In this document: positions 3,735-64,000 of the stretch, in pieces | How positions within the stretch are numbered: the first letter of the stretch is position 1 | Layout of the letters: every line of letters begins with the position of its first letter | Origin: Eledone cirrhosa | Lineage: Eukaryota | Direction of reading: 5' to 3' | DNA: 64,000 nt | Assembly: GCA_964016885.1 (NCBI GenBank) | Contig: OZ024743.1 | Span: 81,158,001 to 81,222,000 of the forward strand | Position numbers and translations under genes: made by a program | The notes under the pieces: generated by a model | Told to the model about the DNA's origin: nothing | The model's database searches: none | The model's input: the letters and a program-made list of their open reading frames with translations, nothing else

Positions 3735-4140
3735 GGGGTGTAATTTAAAATAATTTTCTGAAGAGGAATGGAAGTAAAGAATCGGGAATCTATATTCCTT
3801 GTGATTTCAAACTAATTAAACGGTTTTAGTCCCGAAGAAGTCATTTTTATATAAAATACACTAAGAAGGAATATTAATAGTTTTAAAACATGAAATAGAC
3901 TTACGAATGTTTTGCGAGACTAACTAGGAATGAAATAAAGTTCATAGTTGGGAGAATATCTCATTAGAGTCAAATTAAATACAAATAATTTACTTGGGAG
4001 AAATGTTCTGACTTCGTATACGAAGTGTAAATATATGTGTCTATGTATATATATATATATATATCCATAAACACACACACACGCACAGACACACATACAC
4101 GCACACACTCACTTACATACATATATATATCATGTTGCAT

Positions 4141-4348
4141 ATAGAAATGGCTTCTACAGGACTAGAACTGTTTCATTCGGTAGAAATCATCAGGAAGCCA
4201 GGTGAAATCATCAGGCTTCCTGATGATTTCTACCGAATCAAATAGTTCTAGTCCTGTAGAAGCCATTCTATATTAAATATTCATACTCTGCTTTGTATTC
4301 AGTACCTTACTTACTGTGGTTACCCCCGATTGAACCCGGGATAAACTT
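4141..4348 (+). mobile_element. Short hammerhead element (family H1): 5' inverted copy plus sense copy ending at (TA)n
   Basis: 4141-4199 is the reverse complement of 4214-4272; same family at 27172-27305 and 35206-35340. Confidence 0.85.
4149..4199 (-). ncRNA. Type I hammerhead ribozyme, intact core
   Basis: Minus strand: GGCTTC-CTGATGA-tttc tacc gaat-GAAA-CAG ttctagtc CTG-TA-GAAGCC; the + copy at 4214-4264 has GAAA mutated to CAAA. Confidence 0.85.
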
Positions 4349-21395: not shown

Positions 21396-21453
<58 letters not shown>

Positions 21454-22042
21454 TAGATAATTTAATATATCAACTAACATAAGCGCACAGATGCACGCCC
21501 ATGCCAGCAAATACACAGGTTATGTCATAGTACCTAGGTGGTTCAATAGTTGGAGTGAAAATTTAAGTAAGAAAAAAATTTTTTTTTTTTTTTTTTTTAT
21601 TTTTTTAAAAAAAATATTTTCTTATTTTACGTCCTTTATATTATTGTTCTGCATTCTCCTGCATTGAACCACCTAGGTACTATGACATAACCTGTGTATT
21701 TGCTGGCATGGGCGTGCATCTGTGCGCTTATGTTAGTTGATATATTAAATTATCTATATTTATCTCCAAATCACTGATTTGTCGAGCAAACTTGTCAAAA
21801 CCACTTCTAAAAAAATTTTTTTTGGGGTGTTAGTAGGCGTCAGTCATCTTACCATCCCATTCCTTCTAACTAGCCTCTGTGTCACGTGATTGATTCTTTA
21901 GAATCGGCCATTTGACTTGAAGCAGTGAGAATTTCGGTACATAGAATCCAGTCCTCGCAAGCTGTTCGATCTACCGAATTATTATTATTTTTATATGAGC
22001 CGCCAGTGTCTGCGCATTGCCTGGAGACTTAACTGAGAATAG

Positions 22043-22124
22043 ACTCCCTGATGACGCAATGAATTCTCGACAGTTGGATTACGTAACTGTCTTTATCCCA
22101 TTGCAGAAACTAATTAGTTGGAGT
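22043..22124 (+). ncRNA. Type I hammerhead ribozyme with extended stem II
   Basis: ACTCC-CTGATGA-cGCAATG..GACAGTT..AACTGTC..CATTGCa-GAAA-CTAATTAG-TT-GGAGT. Confidence 0.85.
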
Positions 22125-22612
22125 GAAAATTTAAGTAAGAAAAAAATTTTTTTTTTTTTTTTAAATTTAAAAAAAAAAAAAAAATATTTTCTTATTTTAC
22201 GTCCTTTATATTATTGTTCTGCATTCTCCTGCATTGAACCACCTAGGTACTATGACATAACCTGTGTATTTGCTGGCATGGGCGTGCATCTGTGCGCTTA
22301 TGTTAGTTGATATATTAAATTATCTATATTTATCTCCAAATCACTGATTTGTCGAGCAAACTTGTCAAAACCACTTCTAAAAAAATTTTTTTTGGGGTGT
22401 TAGTAGGCGTCAGTCATCTTACCATCCCATTCCTTCTAACTAGCCTCTGTGTCACGTGATTGATTCTTTAGAATCGGCCATTTGACTTGAAGCAGTGAGA
22501 ATTTCGGTACATAGAATCCAGTCCTCGCAAGCTGTTCGATCTACCGAATTATTATTATTTTTATATGAGCCGCCAGTGTCTGCGCATTGCCTGGAGACTT
22601 AACTGAGAATAG

Positions 22613-22694
22613 ACTCCCTGATGACGCAATGAATTCTCGACAGTTGGATTACGTAACTGTCTTTATCCCATTGCAGAAACTAATTAGTTGGAGT
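22613..22694 (+). ncRNA. Type I hammerhead ribozyme, copy 2
   Basis: Identical to 22043-22124, offset by 570. Confidence 0.85.
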
Positions 22695-23182
22695 GAAAAT
22701 TTAAGTAAGAAAAAAATTTTTTTTTTTTTTTTAAATTTAAAAAAAAAAAAAAAATATTTTCTTATTTTACGTCCTTTATATTATTGTTCTGCATTCTCCT
22801 GCATTGAACCACCTAGGTACTATGACATAACCTGTGTATTTGCTGGCATGGGCGTGCATCTGTGCGCTTATGTTAGTTGATATATTAAATTATCTATATT
22901 TATCTCCAAATCACTGATTTGTCGAGCAAACTTGTCAAAACCACTTCTAAAAAAATTTTTTTTGGGGTGTTAGTAGGCGTCAGTCATCTTACCATCCCAT
23001 TCCTTCTAACTAGCCTCTGTGTCACGTGATTGATTCTTTAGAATCGGCCATTTGACTTGAAGCAGTGAGAATTTCGGTACATAGAATCCAGTCCTCGCAA
23101 GCTGTTCGATCTACCGAATTATTATTATTTTTATATGAGCCGCCAGTGTCCGCGCATTGCCTGGAGACTTAACTGAGAATAG

Positions 23183-23264
23183 ATGCCCTGATGACGCAAT
23201 GAATTCTCGACAGTTGGATTACGTAACTGTCTTTATCCCATTGCAGAAACTAATTAGTTGGAGT
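23183..23264 (+). ncRNA. Type I hammerhead ribozyme, copy 3 (stem I variant ATGCC)
   Basis: Same core; two substitutions in stem I. Confidence 0.75.
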
Positions 23265-23339
23265 GAAAATTTAAGTAAGAAAAAAATTTTTTTTTTTTTT
23301 TTTAATTTTTTAAAAAAAAATATTTTCTTATTTTACGTC

Positions 23340-23373
<34 letters not shown>

Positions 23374-24656: not shown

Positions 24657-24698
<42 letters not shown>

Positions 24699-24983
24699 CA
24701 AATAACGAAACGAAATCAAACTTCGTTTCGCTTCTAACTCACTTTTGTATGACTGACGCTTAAACAATTAAGTTAAAGTGTACATCTACATATGTATACG
24801 GAAGTATTAGTATGCATATAAATACACACATGTATACATATGTACATGTACTCAGCTTTTCACTAGACACTTTACAGTGAGTGTCAGCTAGTCTGTATGT
24901 AACCACACAGGCGGACCGGGTTTTAGAGTCATACGAGTTTTCAAGGAAACACATTTCCTCTATTCTCCAGAGGGCCAGACAGG

Positions 24984-25028
24984 AATATTGGACTAGTTTC
25001 GATGTTATTACATCTCATCAGCAATATT
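24984..25028 (-). ncRNA. Type I hammerhead ribozyme
   Basis: Minus strand AATATTG-CTGATGA-GATGT aata ACATC-GAAA-CTAG-TC-CAATATT. Confidence 0.92.
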
Positions 25029-25452
25029 TACCCATCTTCCGGCTTCTCTGGAGAATTGTAAAAGCACATATCGTTATATGCTTTTTCTATGAAAATTAGT
25101 AGTGGGTAGACCAATTTGCATAGAACGTGAGTCATTGTGCGCACCGGTTCAGCGGAAACGATAAAAACAAATAACGAAACGAAATCAAACTTCGTTTCGC
25201 TTCTAACTCACTTTTGTATGACTGACGCTTAAACAATTAAGTTAAAGTGTACATCTACATATGTATACGGAAGTATTAGTATGCATATAAATACACACAT
25301 GTATACATATGTACATGTACTCAGCTTTTCACTAGACACTTTACAGTGAGTGTCAGCTAGTCTGTATGTAACCACACAGGCGGACCGGGTTTTAGAGTCA
25401 TACGAGTTTTCAAGGAAACACATTTCCTCTATTCTCCAGAGGGCCAGACAGG

Positions 25453-25497
25453 AATATTGGACTAGTTTCGATGTTATTACATCTCATCAGCAATATT
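25453..25497 (-). ncRNA. Type I hammerhead ribozyme, copy 2
   Basis: Identical, offset by 469. Confidence 0.92.
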
Positions 25498-25841
25498 TAC
25501 CCATCTTCCGGCTTCTCTGGAGAATTGTAAAAGCACATATCGTTATATGCTTTTTCTATGAAAATTAGTAGTGGGTAGACCAATTTGCATAGAACGTGAG
25601 TCATTGTACGCACCGGTTCAGCGGAAACGATAAAAACAAATAACGAAACGAAATCAAACTTCGTTAGAAGCGAAACGAAGTTTGATTTCGTTTCGTTATT
25701 TGTTTTTATCGTTTCCGCTGAACCGGTGCGTACAATGACTCACGTTCTATGCAAATTGGTCTACCCACTACTAATTTTCATAGAAAAAGCATATAACGAT
25801 ATGTGCTTTTACAATTCTCCAGAGAAGCCGGAAGATGGGTA

Positions 25842-25886
25842 AATATTGCTGATGAGATGTAATAACATCGAAACTAGTCCAATATT
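25842..25886 (+). ncRNA. Type I hammerhead ribozyme, inverted copy
   Basis: AATATTG-CTGATGA-GATGT aata ACATC-GAAA-CTAG-TC-CAATATT; canonical GUC site. Confidence 0.92.
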
Positions 25887-26098
25887 CCTGTCTGGCCCTC
25901 TGGAGAATAGAGGAAATGTGTTTCCTTGAAAACTCGTATGACTCTAAAACCCGGTCCGCCTGTGTGGTTACATACAGACTAGCTGACACTCACTGTAAAG
26001 TGTCTAGTGAAAAGCTGAGTACATGTACATATGTATACATGTGTGTATTTATATGCATACTAATACTTCCGTATACATATGTAGATGTACACTTTAAC

Positions 26099-26159
<61 letters not shown>

Positions 26160-26224
26160 AATGAAGTAATTCCGTTGGAAAAGTCCAGGAAAAAAGAGTG
26201 CTCTATGTAGGTAACAGAGCTTAA

Positions 26225-26482
26225 TAGTTATTTAATAAACAACATAAGGCAATTATTTCATTTACCAGTGGTTTCTTAGAAGCAAAAAAATGTTGCTTTC
26301 AATCATCAAAATGAAAAAATCCAGGCGTATTTATTGACGTTGGATTTTAAAAACCTAGGTTTTTAAAATCCAACGTCAATAAATAAGCCAGGATTTTTTC
26401 ATTCTGATGATTGAAAGCAACATTTTTTTGCTTCTAAGAAACCACTGGTAAATGAAATAATTGCCTTATGTTGTTTATTACA

Positions 26483-26488
<6 letters not shown>
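26225..26488 (+). mobile_element. Palindromic hammerhead element (family H4), centre CCTAGG at 26356/26357
   Basis: About 130-bp arms with few mismatches; 3' end at (TA)n. Confidence 0.85.
26397..26457 (+). ncRNA. Type I hammerhead ribozyme
   Basis: TTTCATT-CTGATGA-TTGAAAGCAA..TTGCTTCTAA-GAAA-CCA c TGG-TA-AATGAAA. Confidence 0.85.
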
Positions 26489-26543
<55 letters not shown>

Positions 26544-27410: not shown

Positions 27411-27494
27411 GAGGTTATATTTAATTTGTTGGGATTCAACAAGCTTAAACATTTTTAGAACTGATATAAAGCACTCAACAGTTTAGTGGAGTAA

Positions 27495-27879
27495 ATATAC
27501 AGTATATTAACAAATGGAAACTATATTTATAAAACCATATTTATTTTAATATACATATTTCAAGGGCCACCAAGGCAAATTATAGTGCGCTTTCATCAGA
27601 TAAAATACAATACAGATTAGTTTTATAATTAAATATTGACATACCCTGAAGAAAGACAACCTTAACGGTTGGAGCTTCCTGGATAGTCTATCCAGGAAGC
27701 TCCAACCGCTAAGGTCGTCTTTTTTCGGGGTATGTCAATATTTAATTATAAAACTAATCTGTATTGTATTTTATTTGATGAAAGCGCACCATAATTTGCC
27801 TTGGTGGCCCTTGAAATATGTATAATAAAATAAATATGGTTTTATAAATATAGTTTCCATTTGTTAATACATTGTATAT
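27495..27879 (+). mobile_element. Palindromic hammerhead element (family H5), centre ~27687
   Basis: About 190-bp arms; + arm TTTTAT-TTGATGA-AAG..CACC..GGTG..CTT-GAAA-TATGTA-TA-ATAAAA at 27769-27830; the minus arm (27545-27605) keeps CTGATGA. Confidence 0.82.
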
Positions 27880-28290
27880 ATATATATATATATTTGGATT
27901 TAATGCTCTGAAATAGCGATATATATGTGAAGACAAACATAGAATATTCGAAAATATTCTGTATGTTTATAATAAACATTTTGAAGACCCAATCGCTATA
28001 GAATAGAATACGTCACGTATTACAATTTGAGATTCTCGAGAATCTCAAATTGTAATACGTGACGTATTCTATTCTATAGCGATTAGGTCTTCAAAATGTT
28101 TATTATAAACATACAGAATATTTTCGAATATTCTATGTTTGTCTTCACATATATATCGCTATTTCAGAGCATTAAATCCAAATTCTAATTTCCGCCGGAC
28201 CGGCTACCGCTCTATCAAACCAGTTCCTGTACACAGCTAAGTATTCTATAAGTCTCTAGCTGTGTCATTCTCGATAAAAGTATTGGATAT

Positions 28291-28333
28291 GTAATCCTGA
28301 TGATTTCTAACAAGAATGAAACGCGTAGATTAC
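28291..28333 (+). ncRNA. Minimal type I hammerhead ribozyme
   Basis: GTAATC-CTGATGA-tTTC taacaa GAAt-GAAA-CGCG-TA-GATTAC. Confidence 0.9.
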
Positions 28334-28602
28334 TTCCCTTACTTTTATCGAGAATCTCAAATTGTAATACGTGACGTATTCTATTCTATAGCGATTGGGT
28401 CTTCAAAATGTTTATTATAAACATACAGAATATTTTCGAATATTCTATGTTTGTCTTCACATATATATCGCTATTTCAGAGCATTAAATCCAAATTCTAA
28501 TTTCCGCCGGACCGGCTACCGCTCTATCAAACCAGTTCCTGTACACAGCTAAGTATTCTATAAGTCTCTAGCTGTGTCATTCTCGATAAAAGTATTGGAT
28601 AT

Positions 28603-28645
28603 GTAATCCTGATGATTTCTAACAAGAATGAAACGCGTAGATTAC
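28603..28645 (+). ncRNA. Minimal type I hammerhead ribozyme, copy 2
   Basis: Identical, offset by 312. Confidence 0.9.
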
Positions 28646-28767
28646 TTCCCTTACTTTTATCGAGAATCTCAAATTGTAATACGTGACGTATTCTATTCTA
28701 TAGCGATTGGGTCTTCAAAATGTTTATTATAAACATACAGAATATTTTCGAATATTCTATGTTTGTC

Positions 28768-28823
<56 letters not shown>

Positions 28824-30035: not shown

Positions 30036-30087
<52 letters not shown>

Positions 30088-30094
<7 letters not shown>

Positions 30095-30285
30095 GAGGGT
30101 TTTTTTAAACAAAATGAAAAATAACCGCGGTGTCCTACACGAGTTAAAGTATAAAGTAAAAAGATGAAATCGAAAATGCAACAGGAGTCTTTTTTTGTTA
30201 AATATATATTTATTTGGTTCCTTTACCGGTTTCGCAGTTCTTCTGCTTTTCAAAAGTAGAGTTGAGATGGAGGGTCTGTGGCTTT
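30088..30285 (-). mobile_element. Short element with a hammerhead-like variant motif
   Basis: Minus strand CTT-TTGAAAA-GCAG aagaa CTGC-GAAA-CCGG-TA-AAGG; non-canonical core. Confidence 0.45.
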
Positions 30286-30852: not shown

Positions 30853-31515
30853 TTAATTGTAAGTTGTGATGTTGCTGTTCCACTCATATTTTCTATTTAA
30901 TTTTGGTTGTAATTCTTTTATGTTTATTGCCTCTGTAATTTGTCTAAACATTGCATCTTTTCTGTGTGTAGATTCTATTTTTTTTTTCTATGTTCTCTAA
31001 TTTACCCTTGTGTTCTATCTTAGCATGTTGGTAGAGTACAGATGATTCTTTATTATCTTGAAGGTCTCGCCAGTGTTCATTTATCCGTTCCCCTATACTA
31101 CGAGCTGTCTCACCTATGTACACTATATTTTTGTTTCTACATTGTCCTTCAGTACATCTTATGCTTTATACTACATTTCTAGTTTTACAGTTAATATGGG
31201 GGCTTATTTTACAGGTTATACATTTCTTATCTATACATGAGGGTCTTTGAAACGGGTATGTCTTGCTAATAAGTGTTTTTACGGAGGTACCTGGTCTTTC
31301 TACTATCTTAATATTGAGTTTATGTTTATTTAGGGCCCTTCTAAATTTGTAGGCTAGTTCGCCTCTAGGTGTTGTATCGATGAACATTACACTCTGGTAT
31401 TTATTGCTATCATACCATGAGTTTATTCTATTAGCCTTGTTCCTAGTTCTTTCTATTCTATTCCAAAATTTGCTCCTATACAGGGGCAGGTCCCATTTAT
31501 GTCATTATTTACCAT
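30853..31515 (-). pseudogene. GIY-YIG endonuclease region of a Penelope-like element
   Basis: IKIVERPGTSVKTL..C....C..C......CKTRNVV*SIRC....C...IVYIGETARSIGERINEH...LYQH...RQITEAINI...LNRKYEW; one stop and one frameshift. Confidence 0.9.
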
Positions 31516-31814
31516 TTTGGGGAAAAAAAAAAAAAAGGTAAATAATGACATAAATGGGACTTGCCCCTTGTGTAGGAGCAAATTTTGGAATAGAATAGAA
31601 AGAACTAGGAACAAGGCTAATAGAATAAACTCATGGTATGATAGCAATAAATACCAGAGTGTAATGTTCATCGATACAACCCCTAGAGGCGAACTAGCCT
31701 ACAAATTTAGAAGGGCCCTAAATAAACATAAACTCAATATTAAGATAGTAGAAAGACCATGTACCTCCGTAAAAACACTTATTACATACATATATATATA
31801 TATGTATATATATG

Positions 31815-33020: not shown

Positions 33021-33622
33021 GCGGCGATGAATTAGTTTTGCGAGGTTTTTTATATGAAATCGTGTGTCGAAACAAATATTGTTATACTTGGGGAGGGTCA
33101 TATTTGTGTAATATTGCCAGAATTAATAACAGAATACACTCACTGTTTGGTTGGTTTTCGCTTCTCGCTGTCTTTTATATCGGTAATCTAACTTACTCGG
33201 TCCTCAATGCTGCCATTGACTGACCGACGGTCAAAAATAATACAGATACAATATAGACGCAAACACATATATATAGTTTATCATAAATCTTTCGTTGTAC
33301 ATCTGCAACATCGTCAGTGGTGTTATATTTTCCTCCTGTTGTGTTGTATGTCTACGCCATTTTTATTCAGTCTGTTGAATATATGACGATGTTGCAGATG
33401 TGCAACGAAAGATTTATGATAAACTATATATATGTGTTTGTGTCTATATTGTATCTGTATTATTTTTGACCGTCGGTCAGTCAATGGCAACATTGAGGAC
33501 CGAGTAAGTTAGATTACCGATATAAAAGACAGCGAGAAGCGAAAACCAACCAAACAGTGAGTGTTTTCTGTTATTAATTCTGGCAATATTACACAAATAT
33601 GACCCTCCCCAAGTATAACAAT
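33021..33622 (-). mobile_element. Penelope-like terminal region with 5' inversion, related to the 30389 terminus
   Basis: Arms 33078-33316 and 33384-33622; shares GAAATCGTGTGT..ATTGTTATACTT.GGGAGGGTCAT with 30427-30471; hammerhead core CTGACGA-tGTTGCA..TACAAC-GAAA-GATT-TA on the minus strand at ~33279-33322. Confidence 0.82.
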
Positions 33623-33649
33623 ATATATATATACGTATATTTGTATATG

Positions 33650-36079: not shown

Positions 36080-36139
36080 TTCATACACACACACGCATAT
36101 ACACATAAACATACACATACCCACGAACATACACACACA

Positions 36140-36173
<34 letters not shown>

Positions 36174-36357
36174 TACGTATATATTATTATTATAACTATA
36201 TGGATATTGAGGCGATATAGTGTTTATGTGTGCGCCCCAATATCCATATAGTTATAATAATAATATATACGTATGTGTGTGTGTGTGTGTATGTGTGTGT
36301 GTGTGTATGTTCGTGGGTATGTGTATGTTTATGTGTATATGCGTGTGTGTGTATGAA
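36080..36357. repeat. Inverted duplication next to the 3' end of the Penelope-like element
   Basis: 36080-36214 is the reverse complement of 36232-36357. Confidence 0.85.
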
Positions 36358-52245: not shown

Positions 52246-52542
52246 GTGTGCAGTGTAAAACATGTACTATAACAATGAACAATAAGTAAATTATACAAAA
52301 TTGCACACGTATATTTACTTATTAAGCTCACCCCACTACTACCACCAGCACCATCACCACCACTACCATCCACCCCATTACTACCCCACCACCACCACCC
52401 CACTACTATACCACCACCACCCCACAAATACCCAAGACCCCCCCCCCACCACCACCACCACCACAACCTATCACTCAATCACACATCCAATCGGAATCAT
52501 TCACTCATTTCTTCACACCCAACAATCCCCACAATCACTTTA

Positions 52543-55500
52543 GTCCTCACTCACTCCTTCTCTTAACACATTGGTTACCATTTGGTCGCCAGTCGTTCCT
52601 TCTCTTAACACATTGGTTACCATTTGGTCCCCAGTCGTTCCTTCTCTCAACACATGGGTTACCATTTGGTCCTCACTCATTCCTTCTCTCAACACATTGG
52701 TTACCATTTGGTCCTCACTCATTCCTTCTCTCAACATATTGGTTACCATTTGGTCCTCAGTCGTTCCTTCTCTCAACACATTGGTTACCATTTGGTCCTC
52801 ACTCTTTCCTTCTCTCAACACATTGGTTACCATTTGGTCCTCACTCATTCCTTCTCTCAACACATTGGTTACCATTTGGTCCTCAGACGTTCCTTCTCTC
52901 AACACATTGTTTACCATTTCATCCCCAGTCGTTCCTTCTCTCAACATATTGGTTACCATTTGATCCCAGTCGTTCCTTCTCTCAACACATTGGTTACCAT
53001 TTGGTCCTCAGTCGTTCCTTCTCTCAACACATTGGTTACCATTTGGTCCTCACTCATTCCTTCTCTCAACACATTGGTTACCATTTGATCCCCAGTCGTT
53101 CCTTCTCTCAACACATTGGTTACCATTTGGTCCTCTGTCGTTTCTTCTCTCAACACATTGGTTACCATTTGGTCCTCTGTCGTTTCTTCTCTCAACACAT
53201 TGGTTAGCATTTGGACCCCAGTTGTTCATTCTCTCAACACATTGGTTACCATTTGGTCCCCAGTCGTTCCTTCTCTCAACATATTGGTTACCATTTGGTC
53301 CGTCGTCGTTCATTCTCTCAACACATTGGTTACCATTTGGTCCCCAGTCGTTCCATCTCTCAACACATTGGTTACCATTTGGTCCCCAGTCGTTCCTTCT
53401 CTCAACATATTGGTTACCATTTGGTCCGTAGTCGTTCCTTCTCTCAACACATTGGTTACCATTTGGTTCCCAGTCGTTCCTTCTCTCAACACATTGGTTA
53501 TCATTTGGTCCCCAGTCAATCCTTCTCTCAACACATTGGTTACCATTTGGTCCCCAGTCGTTCCTTCTCACCAACACATTGGTTACCATTTGGTCCCCAG
53601 TCGTTCCTTCTCTCAACTCATTGGTTACCATTTGGTCGCCAGTCGTTCCTTCGATCAACACATTGGTTACCATTTGGTTGCAAGTCGTTCCTTCTCTTAA
53701 CACTATGGTTACCATTTGGTCCTCACTCATTACTTCTCTCAACACATTGTTTACCATTTGGCCCTCACTCCCTCCTTCTCTCAACACATTGGTTACCATT
53801 TGCTCCTCACTCATTCAATCTCTCAACACATTGGTTACCAATTGGTCCCAGTCGTTGCTTCTCTCAACACATTGGTTACCATTTGGTCCTCACTCATTCC
53901 TTCTCTCAACACATTGGTTACCATTTGGTTCCCAGTCGTTCTTTCTCTCAACACATTAGTTACCATTTGGTCCTCAGTCGTTCCTTCTCTCTACACATTG
54001 TTTACCATTTGGTCCCCAGTCGTTCCTTCTCCCAACATATTGGTTACCATTTGGTCCTCAGTCGTTCCTCCTCTCAACACATTGGTTACCATTTGGTCCT
54101 CAGTCGTTCCTTCTCTCAACACATTGGTTACCATTTGGTCCTCACTCATTCCTTCTCTCAACACATTGGTTACCATTTGGTCCTCACTCACTCCGTCTCT
54201 CAACACATTGGTTACCATTTAGTCCCCAGTCGTTCCTTCTCTCAACTCATTGGTTACCATTTATTCCCCAGTCGTTCCTTCTCTCAACACATTGGTTACC
54301 ATTTGGTCCCCAGTCGTTCTTTCTCCCAACATATTGGTTACCATTTGGTCCTCACTCATTCCTTCTCTCAACACATTGGTTACCATTTGGTCCCCAGTCG
54401 TTCCTTCTCCCAACATATTGGTTACCATTTGGTCCTCACTCATTCCTTCTCTCAACACATTGGTTACTATTTGGTCCGCAGTCGTTCCTTCTCTCAACAC
54501 ATTGGTTACCATTTGGTCCTCAGTCGTTCCATCTCTCAACACATTGGTTACCATTTGGTCCGCAGTCGTTCCTTCTATCAACACATTGGTTACCATTTGT
54601 TCCTCACTCATTCCTTCTCTCAACACATTGGTTACCATTTGGTCCTCAGTCGTTCCATCTCTCAACACATTGGTTACCATTTGGTCCGCAGTCGTTCTTT
54701 CTATCAACACATTGGTTACCATTTGGTCCCCAGTCGTTCCTTCTCTTAACACACATTGGTTACCATTTGGTCCTCACTCACTCCTTCTCTCAACACATTG
54801 GTTACCATTTGGTCCCCAGTCGTTCCTTCTCTCGACTCATTGGTTACCATATGGTTGCCAGTCGTTCCTTCTCTCAACTCATTGGTTACCATTCTGTTGC
54901 CAGTCATTCCTTCTCTCAACTCATTGGTTACCATTTGGTCCGCAGTCGTTCCTTCTCTCAATACACTGGTTACCATTTGGTCCCCAGTCGTTCCTTCTCT
55001 CAACACATTGGTTACCATTTGGTCCCCTGTCGTTCCATCTCTCAATACACTGGTTACCATTTGGTCCTCACTCATTCCTTCTCTCAACACATTGGTTACC
55101 ATTTGCTCCCCAGTGGTTCCTTCTCTCAACACATTGGTTACCATTTGGTCCCCAGTCTTTCCTTCTCTCAACACATTGGTTACCATTTGGTCCCCAGTCG
55201 TTCCTTCTCTCAACTCATTGGTTACCATTTGGTCGCCAGTCGTTCCTTCGATCAACACATTGGTTACCATTTGGTTGCAAGTCGTTCCTTCTCTTAACAC
55301 TATGGTTACCATTTGGTCCTCACTCATTACTTCTCTCAACACATTGTTTACCATTTGGCCCTCACTCCCTCCTTCTCTCAACACATTGGTTACCATTTGC
55401 TCCTCACTCATTCAATCTCTCAACACATTGGTTACCAATTGGTCCCAGTCGTTGCTTCTCTCAACACATTGGTTACCATTTGGTCCTCACTCATTCCTTC

Positions 55501-58500
55501 TCTCAACACATTGGTTACCATTTGGTTCCCAGTCGTTCTTTCTCTCAACACATTAGTTACCATTTGGTCCTCAGTCGTTCCTTCTCTCTACACATTGTTT
55601 ACCATTTGGTCCCCAGTCGTTCCTTCTCCCAACATATTGGTTACCATTTGGTCCTCAGTCGTTCCTCCTCTCAACACATTGGTTACCATTTGGTCCTCAG
55701 TCGTTCCTTCTCTCAACACATTGGTTACCATTTGGTCCTCACTCATTCCTTCTCTCAACACATTGGTTACCATTTGGTCCTCACTCACTCCGTCTCTCAA
55801 CACATTGGTTACCATTTAGTCCCCAGTCGTTCCTTCTCTCAACTCATTGGTTACCATTTATTCCCCAGTCGTTCCTTCTCTCAACACATTGGTTACCATT
55901 TGGTCCCCAGTCGTTCTTTCTCCCAACATATTGGTTACCATTTGGTCCTCACTCATTCCTTCTCTCAACACATTGGTTACCATTTGGTCCCCAGTCGTTC
56001 CTTCTCCCAACATATTGGTTACCATTTGGTCCTCACTCATTCCTTCTCTCAACACATTGGTTACTATTTGGTCCGCAGTCGTTCCTTCTCTCAACACATT
56101 GGTTACCATTTGGTCCTCAGTCGTTCCATCTCTCAACACATTGGTTACCATTTGGTCCGCAGTCGTTCCTTCTATCAACACATTGGTTACCATTTGTTCC
56201 TCACTCATTCCTTCTCTCAACACATTGGTTACCATTTGGTCCTCAGTCGTTCCATCTCTCAACACATTGGTTACCATTTGGTCCGCAGTCGTTCTTTCTA
56301 TCAACACATTGGTTACCATTTGGTCCCCAGTCGTTCCTTCTCTTAACACACATTGGTTACCATTTGGTCCTCACTCACTCCTTCTCTCAACACATTGGTT
56401 ACCATTTGGTCCCCAGTCGTTCCTTCTCTCGACTCATTGGTTACCATATGGTTGCCAGTCGTTCCTTCTCTCAACTCATTGGTTACCATTTTGTTGCCAG
56501 TCATTCCTTCTCTCAACTCATTGGTTACCATTTGGTCCGCAGTCGTTCCTTCTCTCAATACACTGGTTACCATTTGGTCCCCAGTCGTTCCTTCTCTCAA
56601 CACATTGGTTACCATTTGGTCCCCTGTCGTTCCTTCTCTCAATACACTGGTTACCATTTGGTCCTCACTCATTCCTTCTCTCAACACATTGGTTACCATT
56701 TGCTCCCCAGTGGTTCCTTCTCTCAACACATTGGTTACCATTTGGTCCCCAGTCTTTCCTTCTCTCAACATATTGGTTACCATTTGGTCCCCACTCATTC
56801 CTTCTCTCAACACATTGGTTACCATTTGGTCCCCAGTCGTTCCTTCTCTCAACACATTGGTTACCATTTGGTCCCCAGTCGTTTCTTCTCTCAACACATT
56901 GGTTACCATTTGGTCCTCAGTCGTTCCTTCTCTCAACACATTGGTTACCATTTGGTCCTCACTAACTCCTTCTCTCAACACATTGGTTACCATTTGGTCC
57001 CCAGTCGTTCCTTCTCTCAACTCATTGGTTACCATTTGGTTGCCAGTCGTTCCTTCTCTCAACTCATTGGTTACCATTTTGTTGCCAGTCGTTCCTCCTC
57101 TCAACTCATTGGTTACCATTTGGTCCCCAGTCGTTCCTTCTCTCAACACATTGGTTACCATTTGGTCCTCAGTCGTTCCTTCTCTCAAAACATTGGTTAC
57201 CATTTGGTCCTCAGTCGTTCCTTCTCTCAACACATTGGTTACCATTTGGTTCTCAGTCGTTCCTTCTCTCAACACATTGGTTACCATTTGGTCCCCAGTC
57301 GTTCCTTCTCTCAACTCATTGGTTACCATTTGGTTGCCAGTCGTTCCTTCTCTCAACTCATTGGTTACCATTTGGTTGCCAGTCGTTCCTTCTCTCAACA
57401 CATTGGTTACCATTTGGTCCTCAGTCGTTCCTTCTCTCAAAACATTGGTTACCATTTGGTCCTCAGTCGTTCCTTCTCTCAACACATTGGTTACCATTTG
57501 GTTCTCAGTCGTTCCTTCTCTCAACACATTGGTTACCATTTGGTCCCCAGTCGTTCCTTCTCTCAACTCATTGGTTACCATTTTGTTGCCAGTCGTTCCT
57601 CTTCTCAACTCATTGGTTACCATTTGGTCCTCACTCCTTCCTTCTCTCAACACATTGGTTACCATTTGGTCCCCAGTCGTTCCTTCTCTCTACACATTGG
57701 TTACCATTTGGTCCCCAGTCGTTCCTTCTCTCAACATATTGGTTACCATTTGGTCCTCACTCATTCCTTCTCTCAACACATTGGTTACTATTTGGTCCGC
57801 AGTCGTTCCTTCTCTCAACACATTGGTTACCATTTGGTCCTCAGTCGTTCCATCTCTCACCACATTGGTTACCATTTGGTCCGCAGTCGTTCCTTCTATC
57901 AACACATTGGTTACCATTTGTTCCTCACTCATTCCTTCTCTCAACACATTGGTTACCATTTGGTCCTCACTCATTCCTTCTCTCAACACATTAGTTACCA
58001 TTTGGTCCCCAGTCGTTCCTTCTCTCAACACATTGGTTACCATTTGGTTCCCAGTCGTTTCTTCTCTCAACACATTGGTTACCATTTGATCCTCACTCAT
58101 TCCTTCTCTCAACACATTGGTTACCATTTGATACCCAGTCGTTCCTTCTCTCAACATATTGGTTACCATTTGGTCCTCACTCATTCCTCCTCTCAACACA
58201 TTGGTTACCATTTGGTCCCCAGTCAATCCTTCTCTCAACACATTGTTACCATTTGGTCCCCAGTCGTTCCTTCTCACCAACACATTGGTTACCATTTGGT
58301 CCCCAGTCGTTCCTTCTCTCAACTCATTGGTTACCATTTGGTCGCCAGTCGTTCCTTCGATCAACACATTGGTTACCATTTGGTTGCAAGTCGTTCCTTC
58401 TCTTAACACTATGGTTACCATTTGGTCCTCACTCATTACTTCTCTCAACACATTGTTTACCATTTGGCCCTCACTCCCTCCTTCTCTCAACACATTGGTT

Positions 58501-61500
58501 ACCATTTGCTCCTCACTCATTCAATCTCTCAACACATTGGTTACCAATTGGTCCCAGTCGTTGCTTCTCTCAACACATTGGTTACCATTTGGTCCTCACT
58601 CATTCCTTCTCTCAACACATTGGTTACCATTTGGTCCCCAGTCGTTCTTTCTCTCAACACATTAGTTACCATTTGGTCCTCAGTCGTTCCTTCTCTCTAC
58701 ACATTGTTTACCATTTGGTCCCCAGTCGTTCCTTCTCCCAACATATTGGTTACCATTTGGTCCTCAGTCGTTCCTCCTCTCAACACATTGGTTACCATTT
58801 GGTCCTCAGTCGTTCCTTCTCTCAACACATTGGTTACCATTTGGTCCTCACTCATTCCTTCTCTCAACACATTGGTTACCATTTGGTCCTCACTCACTCC
58901 GTCTCTCAACACATTGGTTACCATTTAGTCCCCAGTCGTTCCTTCTCTCAACTCATTGGTTACCATTTATTCCCCAGTCGTTCCTTCTCTCAACACATTG
59001 GTTACCATTTGGTCCCCAGTCGTTCTTTCTCCCAACATATTGGTTACCATTTGGTCCTCACTCATTCCTTCTCTCAACACATTGGTTACCATTTGGTCCC
59101 CAGTCGTTCCTTCTCTCAACATATTGGTTACCATTTGGTCCTCACTCATTCCTTCTCTCAACACATTGGTTACTATTTGGTCCGCAGTCGTTCCTTCTCT
59201 CAACACATTGGTTACCATTTGGTCCTCAGTCGTTCCATCTCTCACCACATTGGTTACCATTTGGTCCGCAGTCGTTCCTTCTATCAACACATTGGTTACC
59301 ATTTGTTCCTCACTCATTCCTTCTCTCAACACATTGGTTACCATTTGGTCCTCAGTCGTTCCATCTCTCAACACATGGGTTACCATTTGGTCCGCAGTCG
59401 TTCTTTCTATCAACACATTGGTTACCATTTGGTCCCCAGTCGTTCCTTCTCTTAACACACATTGGTTACCATTTGGTCCTCACTCACTCCTTCTCTCAAC
59501 ACATTGGTTACCATTTGGTCCCCAGTCGTTCCTTCTCTCGACTCATTGGTTACCATTTGGTTGCCAGTCGTTCCTTCTCTCAACTCATTGGTTACCATTT
59601 TGTTGCCAGTCATTCCTTCTCTCAACTCATTGGTTACCATTTGGTCCGCAGTCGTTCCTTCTCTCAATACACTGGTTACCATTTGGTCCCCAGTCGTTCC
59701 TTCTCTCAACACATTGGTTACCATTTGGTCCCCTGTCGTTCCTTCTCTCAATACACTGGTTACCATTTGGTCCTCACTCATTCCTTCTCTCAACACATTG
59801 GTTACCATTTGCTCCCCAGTCGTTCCTTCTCTCAACACATTGGTTACCATTTGGTCCCCAGTCTTTCCTTCTCTCAACATATTGGTTACCATTTGGTCCC
59901 CACTCATTCCTTCTCTCAACACATTGGTTACCATTTGGTCCCCAGTCGTTCCTTCTCTCAACACATTGGTTACCATTTGGTCCCCAGTCGTTTCTTCTCT
60001 CAACACATTGGTTACCATTTGGTCCTCAGTCGTTCCTTCTCTCAACACATTGGTTACCATTTGGTCCCCAGTCGTTCCTTCTCTCAACTCATTGGTTACC
60101 ATTTGGTCCCCAGTCGTTCCTTCTCTCAACTCATTGGTTACCATTTTGTTGCCAGTCGTTCCTCCTCTCAACTCATTGGTTACCATTTGGTCCCCAATCG
60201 TTCCTTCTCTCAACACATTGGTTACCATTTGGTCCTCAGTCGTTCCTTCTCTCAAAACATTGGTTACCATTTGGTCCTCAGTCGTTCCTTCTCTCAACAC
60301 ATTGGTTACCATTTGGTTCTCAGTCGTTCCTTCTCTCAACACATTGGTTACCATTTGGTCCCCAGTCGTTCCTTCTCTCAACTCATTGGTTACCATTTTG
60401 TTGCCAGTCGTTCCTCTTCTCAACTCATTTGTTACCATTTGGTCCTCACTCCTTCCTTCTCTCAACACATTGGTTACCATTTGGTCCCCAGTCGTTCCTT
60501 CTCTCTACACATTGGTTACCATTTGGTCCCCAGTCGTTCCTTCTCTCAAAACATTGGTTACCATTTGGTCCTCAGTCGTTCCTTCTCTCAACACATTGGT
60601 TACCATTTGGTTCTCAGTCGTTCCTTCTCTCAACACATTGGTTACCATTTGGTCCCCAGTCGTTCCTTCTCTCAACTCATTGGTTACCATTTGGTTGCCA
60701 GTCGTTCCTTCTCTCAACTCATTGGTTACCATTTGGTTGCCAGTCGTTCCTTCTCTCAACACATTGGTTACCATTTGGTCCTCAGTCGTTCCTTCTCTCA
60801 AAACATTGGTTACCATTTGGTCCTCAGTCGTTCCTTCTCTCAACACATTGGTTACCATTTGGTTCTCAGTCGTTCCTTCTCTCAACACATTGGTTACCAT
60901 TTGGTCCCCAGTCGTTCCTTCTCTCAACTCATTGGTTACCATTTTGTTGCCAGTCGTTCCTCTTCTCAACTCATTGGTTACCATTTGGTCCTCACTCCTT
61001 CCTTCTCTCAACACATTGGTTACCATTTGGTCCCCAGTCGTTCCTTCTCTCTACACATTGGTTACCATTTGGTCCCCAGTCGTTCCTTCTCTCAACATAT
61101 TGGTTACCATTTGGTCCTCACTCATTCCTTCTCTCAACACATTGGTTACTATTTGGTCCGCAGTCGTTCCTTCTCTCAACACATTGGTTACCATTTGGTC
61201 CTCAGTCGTTCCATCTCTCACCACATTGGTTACCATTTGGTCCGCAGTCGTTCCTTCTATCAACACATTGGTTACCATTTGTTCCTCACTCATTCCTTCT
61301 CTCAACACATTGGTTACCATTTGGTCCTCACTCATTCCTTCTCTCAACACATTAGTTACCATTTGGTCCCCAGTCGTTCCTTCTCTCAACACATTGGTTA
61401 CCATTTGGTTCCCAGTCGTTTCTTCTCTCAACACATTGGTTACCATTTGATCCTCACTCATTCCTTCTCTCAACACATTGGTTACCATTTGATACCCAGT

Positions 61501-64000
61501 CGTTCCTTCTCTCAACATATTGGTTACCATTTGGTCCTCACTCATTCCTCCTCTCAACACATTGGTTACCATTTGGTCCCCAGTCAATCCTTCTCTCAAC
61601 ACATTGTTACCATTTGGTCCCCAGTCGTTCCTTCTCACCAACACATTGGTTACCATTTGGTCCCCAGTCGTTCCTTCTCTCAACTCATTGGTTACCATTT
61701 GGTCGCCAGTCGTTCCTTCGATCAACACATTGGTTACCATTTGGTTGCAAGTCGTTCCTTCTCTTAACACTATGGTTACCATTTGGTCCTCACTCATTAC
61801 TTCTCTCAACACATTGTTTACCATTTGGCCCTCACTCCCTCCTTCTCTCAACACATTGGTTACCATTTGCTCCTCACTCATTCAATCTCTCAACACATTG
61901 GTTACCAATTGGTCCCAGTCGTTGCTTCTCTCAACACATTGGTTACCATTTGGTCCTCACTCATTCCTTCTCTCAACACATTGGTTACCATTTGGTCCCC
62001 AGTCGTTCTTTCTCTCAACACATTAGTTACCATTTGGTCCTCAGTCGTTCCTTCTCTCTACACATTGTTTACCATTTGGTCCCCAGTCGTTCCTTCTCCC
62101 AACATATTGGTTACCATTTGGTCCTCAGTCGTTCCTCCTCTCAACACATTGGTTACCATTTGGTCCTCAGTCGTTCCTTCTCTCAACACATTGGTTACCA
62201 TTTGGTCCTCACTCATTCCTTCTCTCAACACATTGGTTACCATTTGGTCCTCACTCACTCCGTCTCTCAACACATTGGTTACCATTTAGTCCCCAGTCGT
62301 TCCTTCTCTCAACTCATTGGTTACCATTTATTCCCCAGTCGTTCCTTCTCTCAACACATTGGTTACCATTTGGTCCCCAGTCGTTCTTTCTCCCAACATA
62401 TTGGTTACCATTTGGTCCTCACTCATTCCTTCTCTCAACACATTGGTTACCATTTGGTCCCCAGTCGTTCCTTCTCTCAACATATTGGTTACCATTTGGT
62501 CCTCACTCATTCCTTCTCTCAACACATTGGTTACTATTTGGTCCGCAGTCGTTCCTTCTCTCAACACATTGGTTACCATTTGGTCCTCAGTCGTTCCATC
62601 TCTCACCACATTGGTTACCATTTGGTCCGCAGTCGTTCCTTCTATCAACACATTGGTTACCATTTGTTCCTCACTCATTCCTTCTCTCAACACATTGGTT
62701 ACCATTTGGTCCTCAGTCGTTCCATCTCTCAACACATGGGTTACCATTTGGTCCGCAGTCGTTCTTTCTATCAACACATTGGTTACCATTTGGTCCCCAG
62801 TCGTTCCTTCTCTTAACACACATTGGTTACCATTTGGTCCTCACTCACTCCTTCTCTCAACACATTGGTTACCATTTGGTCCCCAGTCGTTCCTTCTCTC
62901 GACTCATTGGTTACCATTTGGTTGCCAGTCGTTCCTTCTCTCAACTCATTGGTTACCATTTTGTTGCCAGTCATTCCTTCTCTCAACTCATTGGTTACCA
63001 TTTGGTCCGCAGTCGTTCCTTCTCTCAATACACTGGTTACCATTTGGTCCCCAGTCGTTCCTTCTCTCAACACATTGGTTACCATTTGGTCCCCTGTCGT
63101 TCCTTCTCTCAATACACTGGTTACCATTTGGTCCTCACTCATTCCTTCTCTCAACACATTGGTTACCATTTGCTCCCCAGTCGTTCCTTCTCTCAACACA
63201 TTGGTTACCATTTGGTCCCCAGTCTTTCCTTCTCTCAACATATTGGTTACCATTTGGTCCCCACTCATTCCTTCTCTCAACACATTGGTTACCATTTGGT
63301 CCCCAGTCGTTCCTTCTCTCAACACATTGGTTACCATTTGGTCCCCAGTCGTTTCTTCTCTCAACACATTGGTTACCATTTGGTCCTCAGTCGTTCCTTC
63401 TCTCAACACATTGGTTACCATTTGGTCCCCAGTCGTTCCTTCTCTCAACTCATTGGTTACCATTTGGTCCCCAGTCGTTCCTTCTCTCAACTCATTGGTT
63501 ACCATTTTGTTGCCAGTCGTTCCTCCTCTCAACTCATTGGTTACCATTTGGTCCCCAATCGTTCCTTCTCTCAACACATTGGTTACCATTTGGTCCTCAG
63601 TCGTTCCTTCTCTCAAAACATTGGTTACCATTTGGTCCTCAGTCGTTCCTTCTCTCAACACATTGGTTACCATTTGGTTCTCAGTCGTTCCTTCTCTCAA
63701 CACATTGGTTACCATTTGGTCCCCAGTCGTTCCTTCTCTCAACTCATTGGTTACCATTTTGTTGCCAGTCGTTCCTCTTCTCAACTCATTTGTTACCATT
63801 TGGTCCTCACTCCTTCCTTCTCTCAACACATTGGTTACCATTTGGTCCCCAGTCGTTCCTTCTCTCTACACATTGGTTACCATTTGGTCCCCAGTCGTTC
63901 CTTCTCTCAACATATTGGTTACCATTTGGTCCTCACTCATTCCTTCTCTCAACACATTAGTTACCATTTGGTCCCCAGTCGTTCCTTCTCTCAACACATT
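52543..64000. repeat. 42-bp satellite CATTGGTTACCATTTGGTCCCCAGTCGTTCCTTCTCTCAACA with higher-order repeats; runs off the window
   Basis: About 270 monomers; variant blocks recur at spacings of 1597, 3109 and 3361 bp (ORF starts 53716, 55313, 58422, 61783). Confidence 0.97.

What the first reader, a model, noticed from the sequence alone, without database searches (positions are those of the whole stretch)
27893..28771. 312-bp tandem element: ribozyme nested in a longer hairpin that coincides with the inversion point
Seen: the hammerhead (28291-28333) is enclosed by an outer 14-bp helix TCTCGATAAAAGTA / TACTTTTATCGAGA. The 5' inversion is centred on CTCGAG, at the position in the unit equivalent to the end of that helix. 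The unit size falls in the range known for animal retrozyme monomers. Inference: RNA or cDNA secondary structure sets the template-switch point.
Basis: partly seen in the sequence, partly recalled or inferred. Interest (0 to 1): 0.75.

Follow-up and report, generated by a model that had tools for sequence, protein, structure and literature searches.

The report
Two-armed retrozyme with Penelope ends
This 312-base repeat with a self-cutting-RNA motif sits at hundreds of places in an animal genome as two back-to-back arms with fixed outer ends, likely made by a Penelope-type transposon enzyme copying one small, probably circular RNA from both sides of a DNA break; the long hairpin is real and conserved but marks the join in only a few percent of copies.

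Summary
In detail: a 312-nt unit, a type I hammerhead, an outer helix (16 bp, not 14) and an inversion centred at 28037|28038. The idea that the helix sets the switch point fails as a rule. This junction occurs once in the genome. Across 116 junctions in other copies, breakpoints scatter over the unit with short microhomologies. Only 4 of 116 join across the helix (0.03 expected), and the window's junction is not one of them. The outer ends are what is fixed. Of 118 head-to-head copies, 108 pair one long end (unit ~150) with one short end (~115); none pairs like with like. Ends run into (TA)n. This is the Penelope 'tail'. Both arms of a copy share the same variants (1084 of 1093 sites). Best reading: a non-autonomous Penelope-type retrozyme, likely inserted by priming from both sides of a break on one probably circular RNA, with the two cDNAs joined by microhomology. 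The helix covaries across related families and is predicted to clamp the monomer ends. No RNA evidence and no partner enzyme were found. The scan noted this layout before in other families of this genome.

The parts
27875..27893 (.). Left (TA)n target run
   Evidence: sequence; 235 of 250 family 3' ends run into TA repeats
27892..28039 (-). Long-ended arm, unit positions 4-151 (148 nt)
   Evidence: (L070)
27893..27927 (-). Penelope-type tail (unit 116-150, about 35 nt), terminal on this arm only
   Evidence: offset between the two fixed 3' ends
28036..28039 (.). Central head-to-head junction, 4-nt palindromic overlap TCGA
   Evidence: unique in genome
28036..28771 (+). Short-ended arm, 2.4 tandem units, ending at unit position about 115
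28267..28282 (+). Outer helix, 5' strand (copy 1)
   Evidence: covariation
28291..28333 (+). Type I hammerhead motif, copy 1; predicted cleavage after 28327
28340..28355 (+). Outer helix, 3' strand (copy 1)
28328..28639 (+). Predicted cleavage-to-cleavage monomer (312 nt), ends held together by stem I and the outer helix
   Evidence: fold z -4.4
28579..28667 (+). Outer helix and hammerhead, copy 2 (motif 28603-28645)
28772..28823 (.). Right (TA)n target run

Best explanation
The element is a non-coding 312-base hammerhead repeat whose copies lie as two back-to-back arms with one long and one short fixed outer end in (TA)n, likely inserted by a Penelope-type reverse transcriptase/endonuclease that would prime from both sides of a cut on one probably circular RNA, the two cDNA ends then likely joined by microhomology. 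Steps: (1) a tandem transcript is predicted to fold as a double hammerhead and release a 312-nt monomer whose ends the 16-bp helix would clamp for ligation (predicted). (2) A Penelope-type enzyme cuts (TA)n (inferred). (3) One DNA end starts at unit ~150 and the other at ~115 (pairing shown, priming inferred). (4) Each cDNA runs a random distance, often more than one unit (shown). (5) The two ends anneal over 0-6 nt, sometimes with short inserts, and rarely over the two strands of a hairpin (junctions shown, repair route inferred). The helix is part of the ribozyme domain, not the usual switch signal.
For: End pairs in 118 head-to-head loci: long+short 108, long+other 8, short+other 2, long+long 0, short+short 0. 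In the 57 loci not chosen for a long end: 50 long+short, 0 like pairs. The offset of about 35 nt matches the 30-40 bp tail (PMC8557442), which PMC11167929 maps between two RT start sites, with both strands cut and extended. 235 of 250 ends run into TA. Divergence: within arm 0.65%, between arms 0.67%, between loci 2.2%. Arms agree at 1084 of 1093 diagnostic sites against 72% for mismatched loci; 24 rare variants lie in both arms of 22 loci. In 35 of 106 loci neither arm contains the other, and 129 of 212 arms exceed one unit. No excess of ends at the cleavage site (2 vs 5.5). Overlap of 2 nt or more in 54 of 89 clean junctions vs 16 expected. The unconstrained fold of the two-copy stretch is the double hammerhead (-107.8 vs -100.0 kcal/mol). 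Helix: 7 of 13 pairs change on both sides in 9 related sequences; one pair is C-G in 160, T-A in 26, C-C in 1 of 187 arms. RT plus GIY-YIG reading frames exist in the genome (5 of 6 tested).
Against: No RNA, circle or cleavage was shown. No autonomous partner sharing this family's ends was found among 50 GIY-YIG loci or next to 30 related loci. The base of stem II is U.U in 407 of 407 and 417 of 418 units, not the conserved G10.1-C11.1 (PMC4209133), so activity is uncertain; only 1 of 9 Xenopus dimers cleaved in vitro. Shared variants also fit two RNAs or a linear multimer from one source locus. 19 of 137 loci have one arm only and 10 of 118 have an irregular end. 234 rare variants lie in one arm only, and 9 diagnostic sites disagree between arms. 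Target-site duplications cannot be read in (TA)n. In vitro, the anole enzyme did not need ribozyme cleavage.
Confidence: 0.7

Rival explanations
1. The outer helix sets the template-switch point for the family.
For: 4 of 116 junctions, 5 genome-wide, cross exactly between the helix strands (0.03 expected). Up to 3 more use other hairpins (L050, L225, and L054 with a mismatch). Ends in the 5' strand are 19 vs 11.1 expected (p 0.017) before those four are removed. The window's junction lies inside the 3' strand.
Against: 111 of 116 junctions are neither helix-crossing nor the window's. No strand excess remains after removal. Pairing probability next to the ends equals background (0.59 vs 0.60, first 55 junctions). 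The window's junction is unique, and its long arm passed the helix twice. The loop-out deletion that would turn a helix-crossing junction into the window's was found 0 times.
Confidence: 0.05
2. Self-priming or fold-back at a palindrome, on an antisense template (model of PMC3846280), makes the inverted arm as a copy of the first.
For: The window alone fits: a perfect palindrome at TCGA, with the short arm contained in the long one. Shared variants between arms are expected. The model is in print for Penelope elements.
Against: The window is the only phase-symmetric junction of 116 (1.1 expected by chance). In 35 of 106 loci neither arm contains the other. It does not explain one long plus one short end.
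Confidence: 0.07
3. Same two-sided priming, but the template is an uncut linear multimer, or two RNAs from one source locus, not a circle.
For: The anole enzyme used unprocessed RNA. Stem II is non-canonical. Source arrays of 8-12 near-identical units exist.
Against: Private variants are present in every unit of both arms (for example 13 of 13 in L195, 8 of 8 in L220), while units of an aged source array carry their own differences that should be handed on in register; this was not seen by eye but was not tested formally.
Confidence: 0.22
4. A short solo terminal repeat inserts and then grows locally by unequal crossover, with gene conversion making units and arms alike (model discussed in 10.64898/2026.07.22.740005).
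For: A few long arrays share variants among only some units (L031, L062).
Against: Arms end in partial units at random phase with fresh junctions. Loci with under one unit per arm also share variants (L100, L088). 234 rare one-arm variants persist, so conversion is not erasing differences.
Confidence: 0.06

Closest known systems
Metazoan non-LTR retrozymes (PMC7229834; 10.64898/2026.07.22.740005)
   Same: Tandem non-coding units of 150-450 bp with one type I hammerhead each, GC under 50% (34% here), palindromic stem III, dispersed copies, Penelope-like elements in the same genome.
   Different: These papers describe head-to-tail arrays; 'inverted' does not occur in the first and only in a reference title in the second. 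Here most copies are two head-to-head arms with a one-sided tail. Expression as circles was shown there and is untested here.
Endonuclease-bearing Penelope-like elements (PMC8557442, PMC3846280, PMC2377424, PMC11167929)
   Same: Inverted 5'-truncated copy at the 5' end, 30-40 bp tail at one end, partial tandems, AT-rich or (TA)n targets, type I hammerhead upstream of the 3' end.
   Different: No reading frame (longest 34 codons). Arms are multimers of one short unit. The junction is rarely a palindrome, against the self-priming model.
LINE-1 twin priming (recalled, no call)
   Same: Both DNA ends prime on one RNA, and the cDNA ends are joined by microhomology into an inversion.
   Different: Here the second start is a fixed site about 35 nt from the first, and the arms overlap and repeat the same sequence instead of dividing it.

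Membership tests
Non-LTR retrozyme | Tandem units of 150-450 bp, each with a type I hammerhead motif | tested here: met
   312-nt units, two motifs here; core positions conserved in over 99% of about 400 units except variable N7 and 6 changes at H17
Non-LTR retrozyme | No protein, no LTR, low GC, dispersed multicopy | tested here: met
   longest ORF 34 codons, 34% GC; 785 exact hits of a 22-mer, control 0
Non-LTR retrozyme | Canonical hammerhead core including G10.1-C11.1 | tested here: inconclusive
   All core nucleotides present, but U.U at the base of stem II; Rfam below gathering score; the same U.U occurs in several other families of this genome, one in the 3' end of an RT-GIY-YIG element
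Non-LTR retrozyme | Self-cleavage (as dimer) | not testable with these tools
   double hammerhead is the predicted minimum-energy fold
Non-LTR retrozyme | Expressed as monomeric circular RNA | not testable with these tools
   only contigs of runs of unrecorded kind were available
Non-autonomous Penelope-like element | Inverted 5'-truncated copy next to the 5' end | tested here: met
   118 of 137 loci head-to-head
Non-autonomous Penelope-like element | 30-40 bp tail at one end only | tested here: met
   ends at about 150 and about 115 (113-124, blurred by TA); 108 of 118 long+short, 0 like pairs
Non-autonomous Penelope-like element | AT-rich or (TA)n target | tested here: met
   235 of 250 ends
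Non-autonomous Penelope-like element | Terminal sequence shared with an autonomous RT-GIY-YIG element | tested here: inconclusive
   none in 50 GIY-YIG loci, drawn from 150 scored of 10,596 candidates, nor beside 30 related loci
Non-autonomous Penelope-like element | Target-site duplication | tested here: inconclusive
   both flanks are (TA)n, so a duplication cannot be read

The most novel reading that the evidence does not exclude
The copies record a Penelope cycle not described in the papers read: one enzyme dimer holds a single small RNA circle, assigns one start site to each side of the DNA break (always one long, one short), rolls round the circle in both arms, and leaves the two cDNA ends to be joined by microhomology. 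The conserved 16-bp helix is the clamp that lets a weak dimeric ribozyme make the circle, and it shows up as a rare one-polarity junction hotspot.
Probability: 0.45. Interest if true: 0.7.

Novelty: new member of a known kind. Interest (0 to 1): 0.5.

Why it matters
PMC8557442 names the formation of tandem and inverted Penelope structures as undefined. PMC3846280 proposes self-priming on an antisense template. PMC7229834 proposes, without showing, that Penelope enzymes copy retrozyme circles. A young family with over a hundred scored junctions separates these models. It argues against self-priming and against a structure-set switch. It gives a sharp prediction for the existing in vitro system (PMC11167929): each cut target should carry one long and one short start, copied from the same RNA. 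The element is of a known kind, and the window's own junction is an ordinary member of the distribution.

Tried and rejected
Helix as the general switch point: rejected. In the first 56 junctions ends inside the ribozyme region looked enriched (29 vs 20.5, p 0.03). This did not replicate in the 70 new loci (16 vs 22.4). A first hint of near-symmetric junctions (19 vs 10.8 within 30 nt) also faded (29 vs 22.7, p 0.09). Window junction as a helix-crossing junction plus loop-out deletion: deletion found 0 times. RNA-editing scars: variants shared by whole loci were A>G 8 and T>C 6 of 22, with no strand bias. Expression: no RNA holder listed; four of six runs were laid, all contigs of unrecorded kind, and nothing is concluded from depth. 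Autonomous partner: not found; one search failed on a stop codon and was not repeated. Rfam miRNA-type hits are hairpin noise below gathering score. Rows dropped before counts: 3 of 140 loci as duplicates (L049, L068, L241); the second, duplicated element in L048; separate extra fragments in L064, L189 and L215; pieces under 24 nt; 2 of 118 junctions with gaps over 30 nt (L046, L200). The 8 relatives in the covariation test were picked by eye as those holding the whole ribozyme region, from 30 loci plus L102 and L131; several are close kin. Look-ups of earlier findings by sequence and by words gave nothing.

Full report
Observation. The stretch 27892-28771 lies between two (TA)n runs. It holds 2.4 tandem copies of a 312-nt unit on the plus strand and a 148-nt inverted arm, with the inversion centred at 28037|28038. 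With unit position 1 at 28345, both arms begin at position 4 and overlap by TCGA. Rfam gives no hit at gathering score and a weak HH9 hit. The outer helix is a perfect 16 bp. The junction lies within its 3' strand, 6 nt from the outer end.

Family. A 22-mer from the unit has 785 exact hits in the 3.0-Gb genome, control 0. The first 100 hits fall in 38 loci, so about 300 loci is my estimate. I fetched 140 loci: 40 from the best DNA matches, 30 more from the first 100 pattern hits, and 70 more from the first 100 of 138 exact long ends. After dropping 3 duplicates, 118 of 137 are head-to-head pairs and 19 have one arm. The host is an animal with a (TA)n-rich genome; it looks cephalopod-like from recall, which I did not test.

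The window's junction occurs once in the genome, allowing one mismatch. In 116 scorable junctions the 232 ends spread over the unit (12 bins, p 0.07, corrected for arm length). The helix 3' strand holds 16 ends vs 13.0 expected and the 5' strand 19 vs 11.1. Four junctions (L076, L186, L197, L204) join exactly across the two helix strands with a 15-nt overlap, against 0.03 expected. Without them and the window, the counts are 10 vs 12.4 and 15 vs 10.7. Genome-wide that junction occurs 5 times, the opposite polarity 0 times, and the loop-out deletion 0 times. Up to three further junctions use other hairpins. Most junctions have short overlaps (2 nt or more in 54 of 89 vs 16 expected), and 27 of 116 carry inserts of 1-25 nt, some of which repeat nearby sequence. 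So hairpins act only as occasional long microhomologies. The window's junction is one of 8 with a 4-nt overlap and the only symmetric one (1.1 expected).

What is fixed. One arm ends at about 150 and the other at about 115; the short end reads as 113-124 because the unit itself has a TA run there. Pairs are long+short in 108 of 118 loci and never long+long or short+short; 10 have an irregular end. The 70 later loci were chosen for a long end and cannot show short+short. The first 57 were not, and gave 50 long+short and no like pairs. 235 of 250 ends run into TA. Penelope-like elements have an inverted 5'-truncated copy, a 30-40 bp tail at one end and microsatellite targets (PMC8557442, passages; PMC3846280, passages; PMC2377424, passages). 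In vitro, the anole enzyme cuts and extends both strands and starts at two sites that bound the tail; it is predicted to be a dimer (PMC11167929, parts 1-2 of 4).

One template. Units differ by 0.65% within an arm, 0.67% between arms and 2.2% between loci (first 69 loci). Arms agree at 1084 of 1093 diagnostic sites in 116 loci, against 72% for mismatched loci. 24 rare variants lie in both arms of 22 loci; 234 lie in one arm only. In 35 of 106 loci neither arm contains the other, so one arm is not a copy of the other. 129 of 212 arms exceed one unit and 60 exceed two. Ends do not gather at the cleavage site (2 vs 5.5), as a cut linear monomer would make them. A circle fits best; a linear multimer from one uniform source is not excluded.

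What the helix does. In 9 related sequences it is 95% paired, with two-sided changes at 7 of 13 pairs, against 42-53% for slid controls; these were picked by eye and are related. A larger set of related families has 5,482 hits of a 19-mer. Within the family one pair switches between C-G and T-A. The cleavage-to-cleavage monomer folds with its ends clamped by stem I and this helix (z -4.4). The two-copy stretch folds, unconstrained, into the double hammerhead, the form described for metazoan ribozymes with short palindromic helix III (PMC4209133, parts 1-2 of 4). I infer a role in dimeric cleavage and ligation. The U.U at the base of stem II departs from the canonical G-C and leaves activity open, although other families here share it.

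Partner. [quoted passage not shown] None of 50 such loci shares this family's ends; the matches there were inserted non-coding relatives.

Known and new. The element fits non-LTR retrozymes (PMC7229834, passages; preprint 10.64898/2026.07.22.740005, parts 1-3 of 5 and a word search; supplements not seen) and carries the Penelope insertion signature. Seven paper searches did not turn up a report of the strict long+short pairing, of shared variants between arms, or of two-armed retrozymes; most subscription papers are not in the library. This scan's earlier notes describe the same layout for other families in this genome. I had reached that reading before opening them, and they are not independent support.

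Verdict. Observation confirmed; interpretation partly supported (retrozyme yes, helix-set switch only in about 2-4% of copies). New member of a known kind, interest 0.5, because the family discriminates between published models and gives a direct in vitro test.

Noticed in passing
window 24692-26103: A 469-nt hammerhead unit with the same two-armed layout in mirror orientation; three motifs (Rfam HH9 31.8 bits); the two outer ends differ by about 74 nt, read by eye.
   Followed up: partly
window 21447-23347: About three tandem copies of a 568-570-nt unit with a CTGATGA core in each and an inverted left part, ending in (TA)n; the strict scan did not call a hammerhead.
   Followed up: no
window 27492-27882, 26224-26489, 31267-31784, 33076-33624, 36080-36357, 4139-4273: Further long palindromes between TA runs, several with hammerhead-like motifs in or beside them (26404, 31934, 4193; also 35212); probably short two-armed insertions of other families.
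   Followed up: no
window 30086-30280, minus strand: By eye, matches the terminal repeat that flanks a 938-codon RT-GIY-YIG frame in L131.
   Followed up: no
unit position 173 (window 28517): 6 of the 9 between-arm disagreements fall here, five of them T/A; the A form extends a neighbouring palindrome, which suggests templated mutation.
   Followed up: partly
L131:494-540, L155, L175, L178: Related families carry the U3-A8 core variant that PMC4209133 reports for Schistosoma elements, inside the same outer helix.
   Followed up: partly
L197:3400-3612: The short arm of this copy is cut off by sequence of the 469-nt family, a chimeric or nested insertion.
   Followed up: no
L204 flanks: The left and right flanks of the insertion are reverse complements of each other.
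   Followed up: no
runs X4 and X6: Contigs of 342 and 340 nt cover about one unit in runs labelled as two other organisms, 12 and 15 differences; a tandem array or a circle would both give this.
   Followed up: no
window about 52400-64000: Long strand-skewed stretch; at 60000 it is a 43-nt tandem repeat.
   Followed up: no
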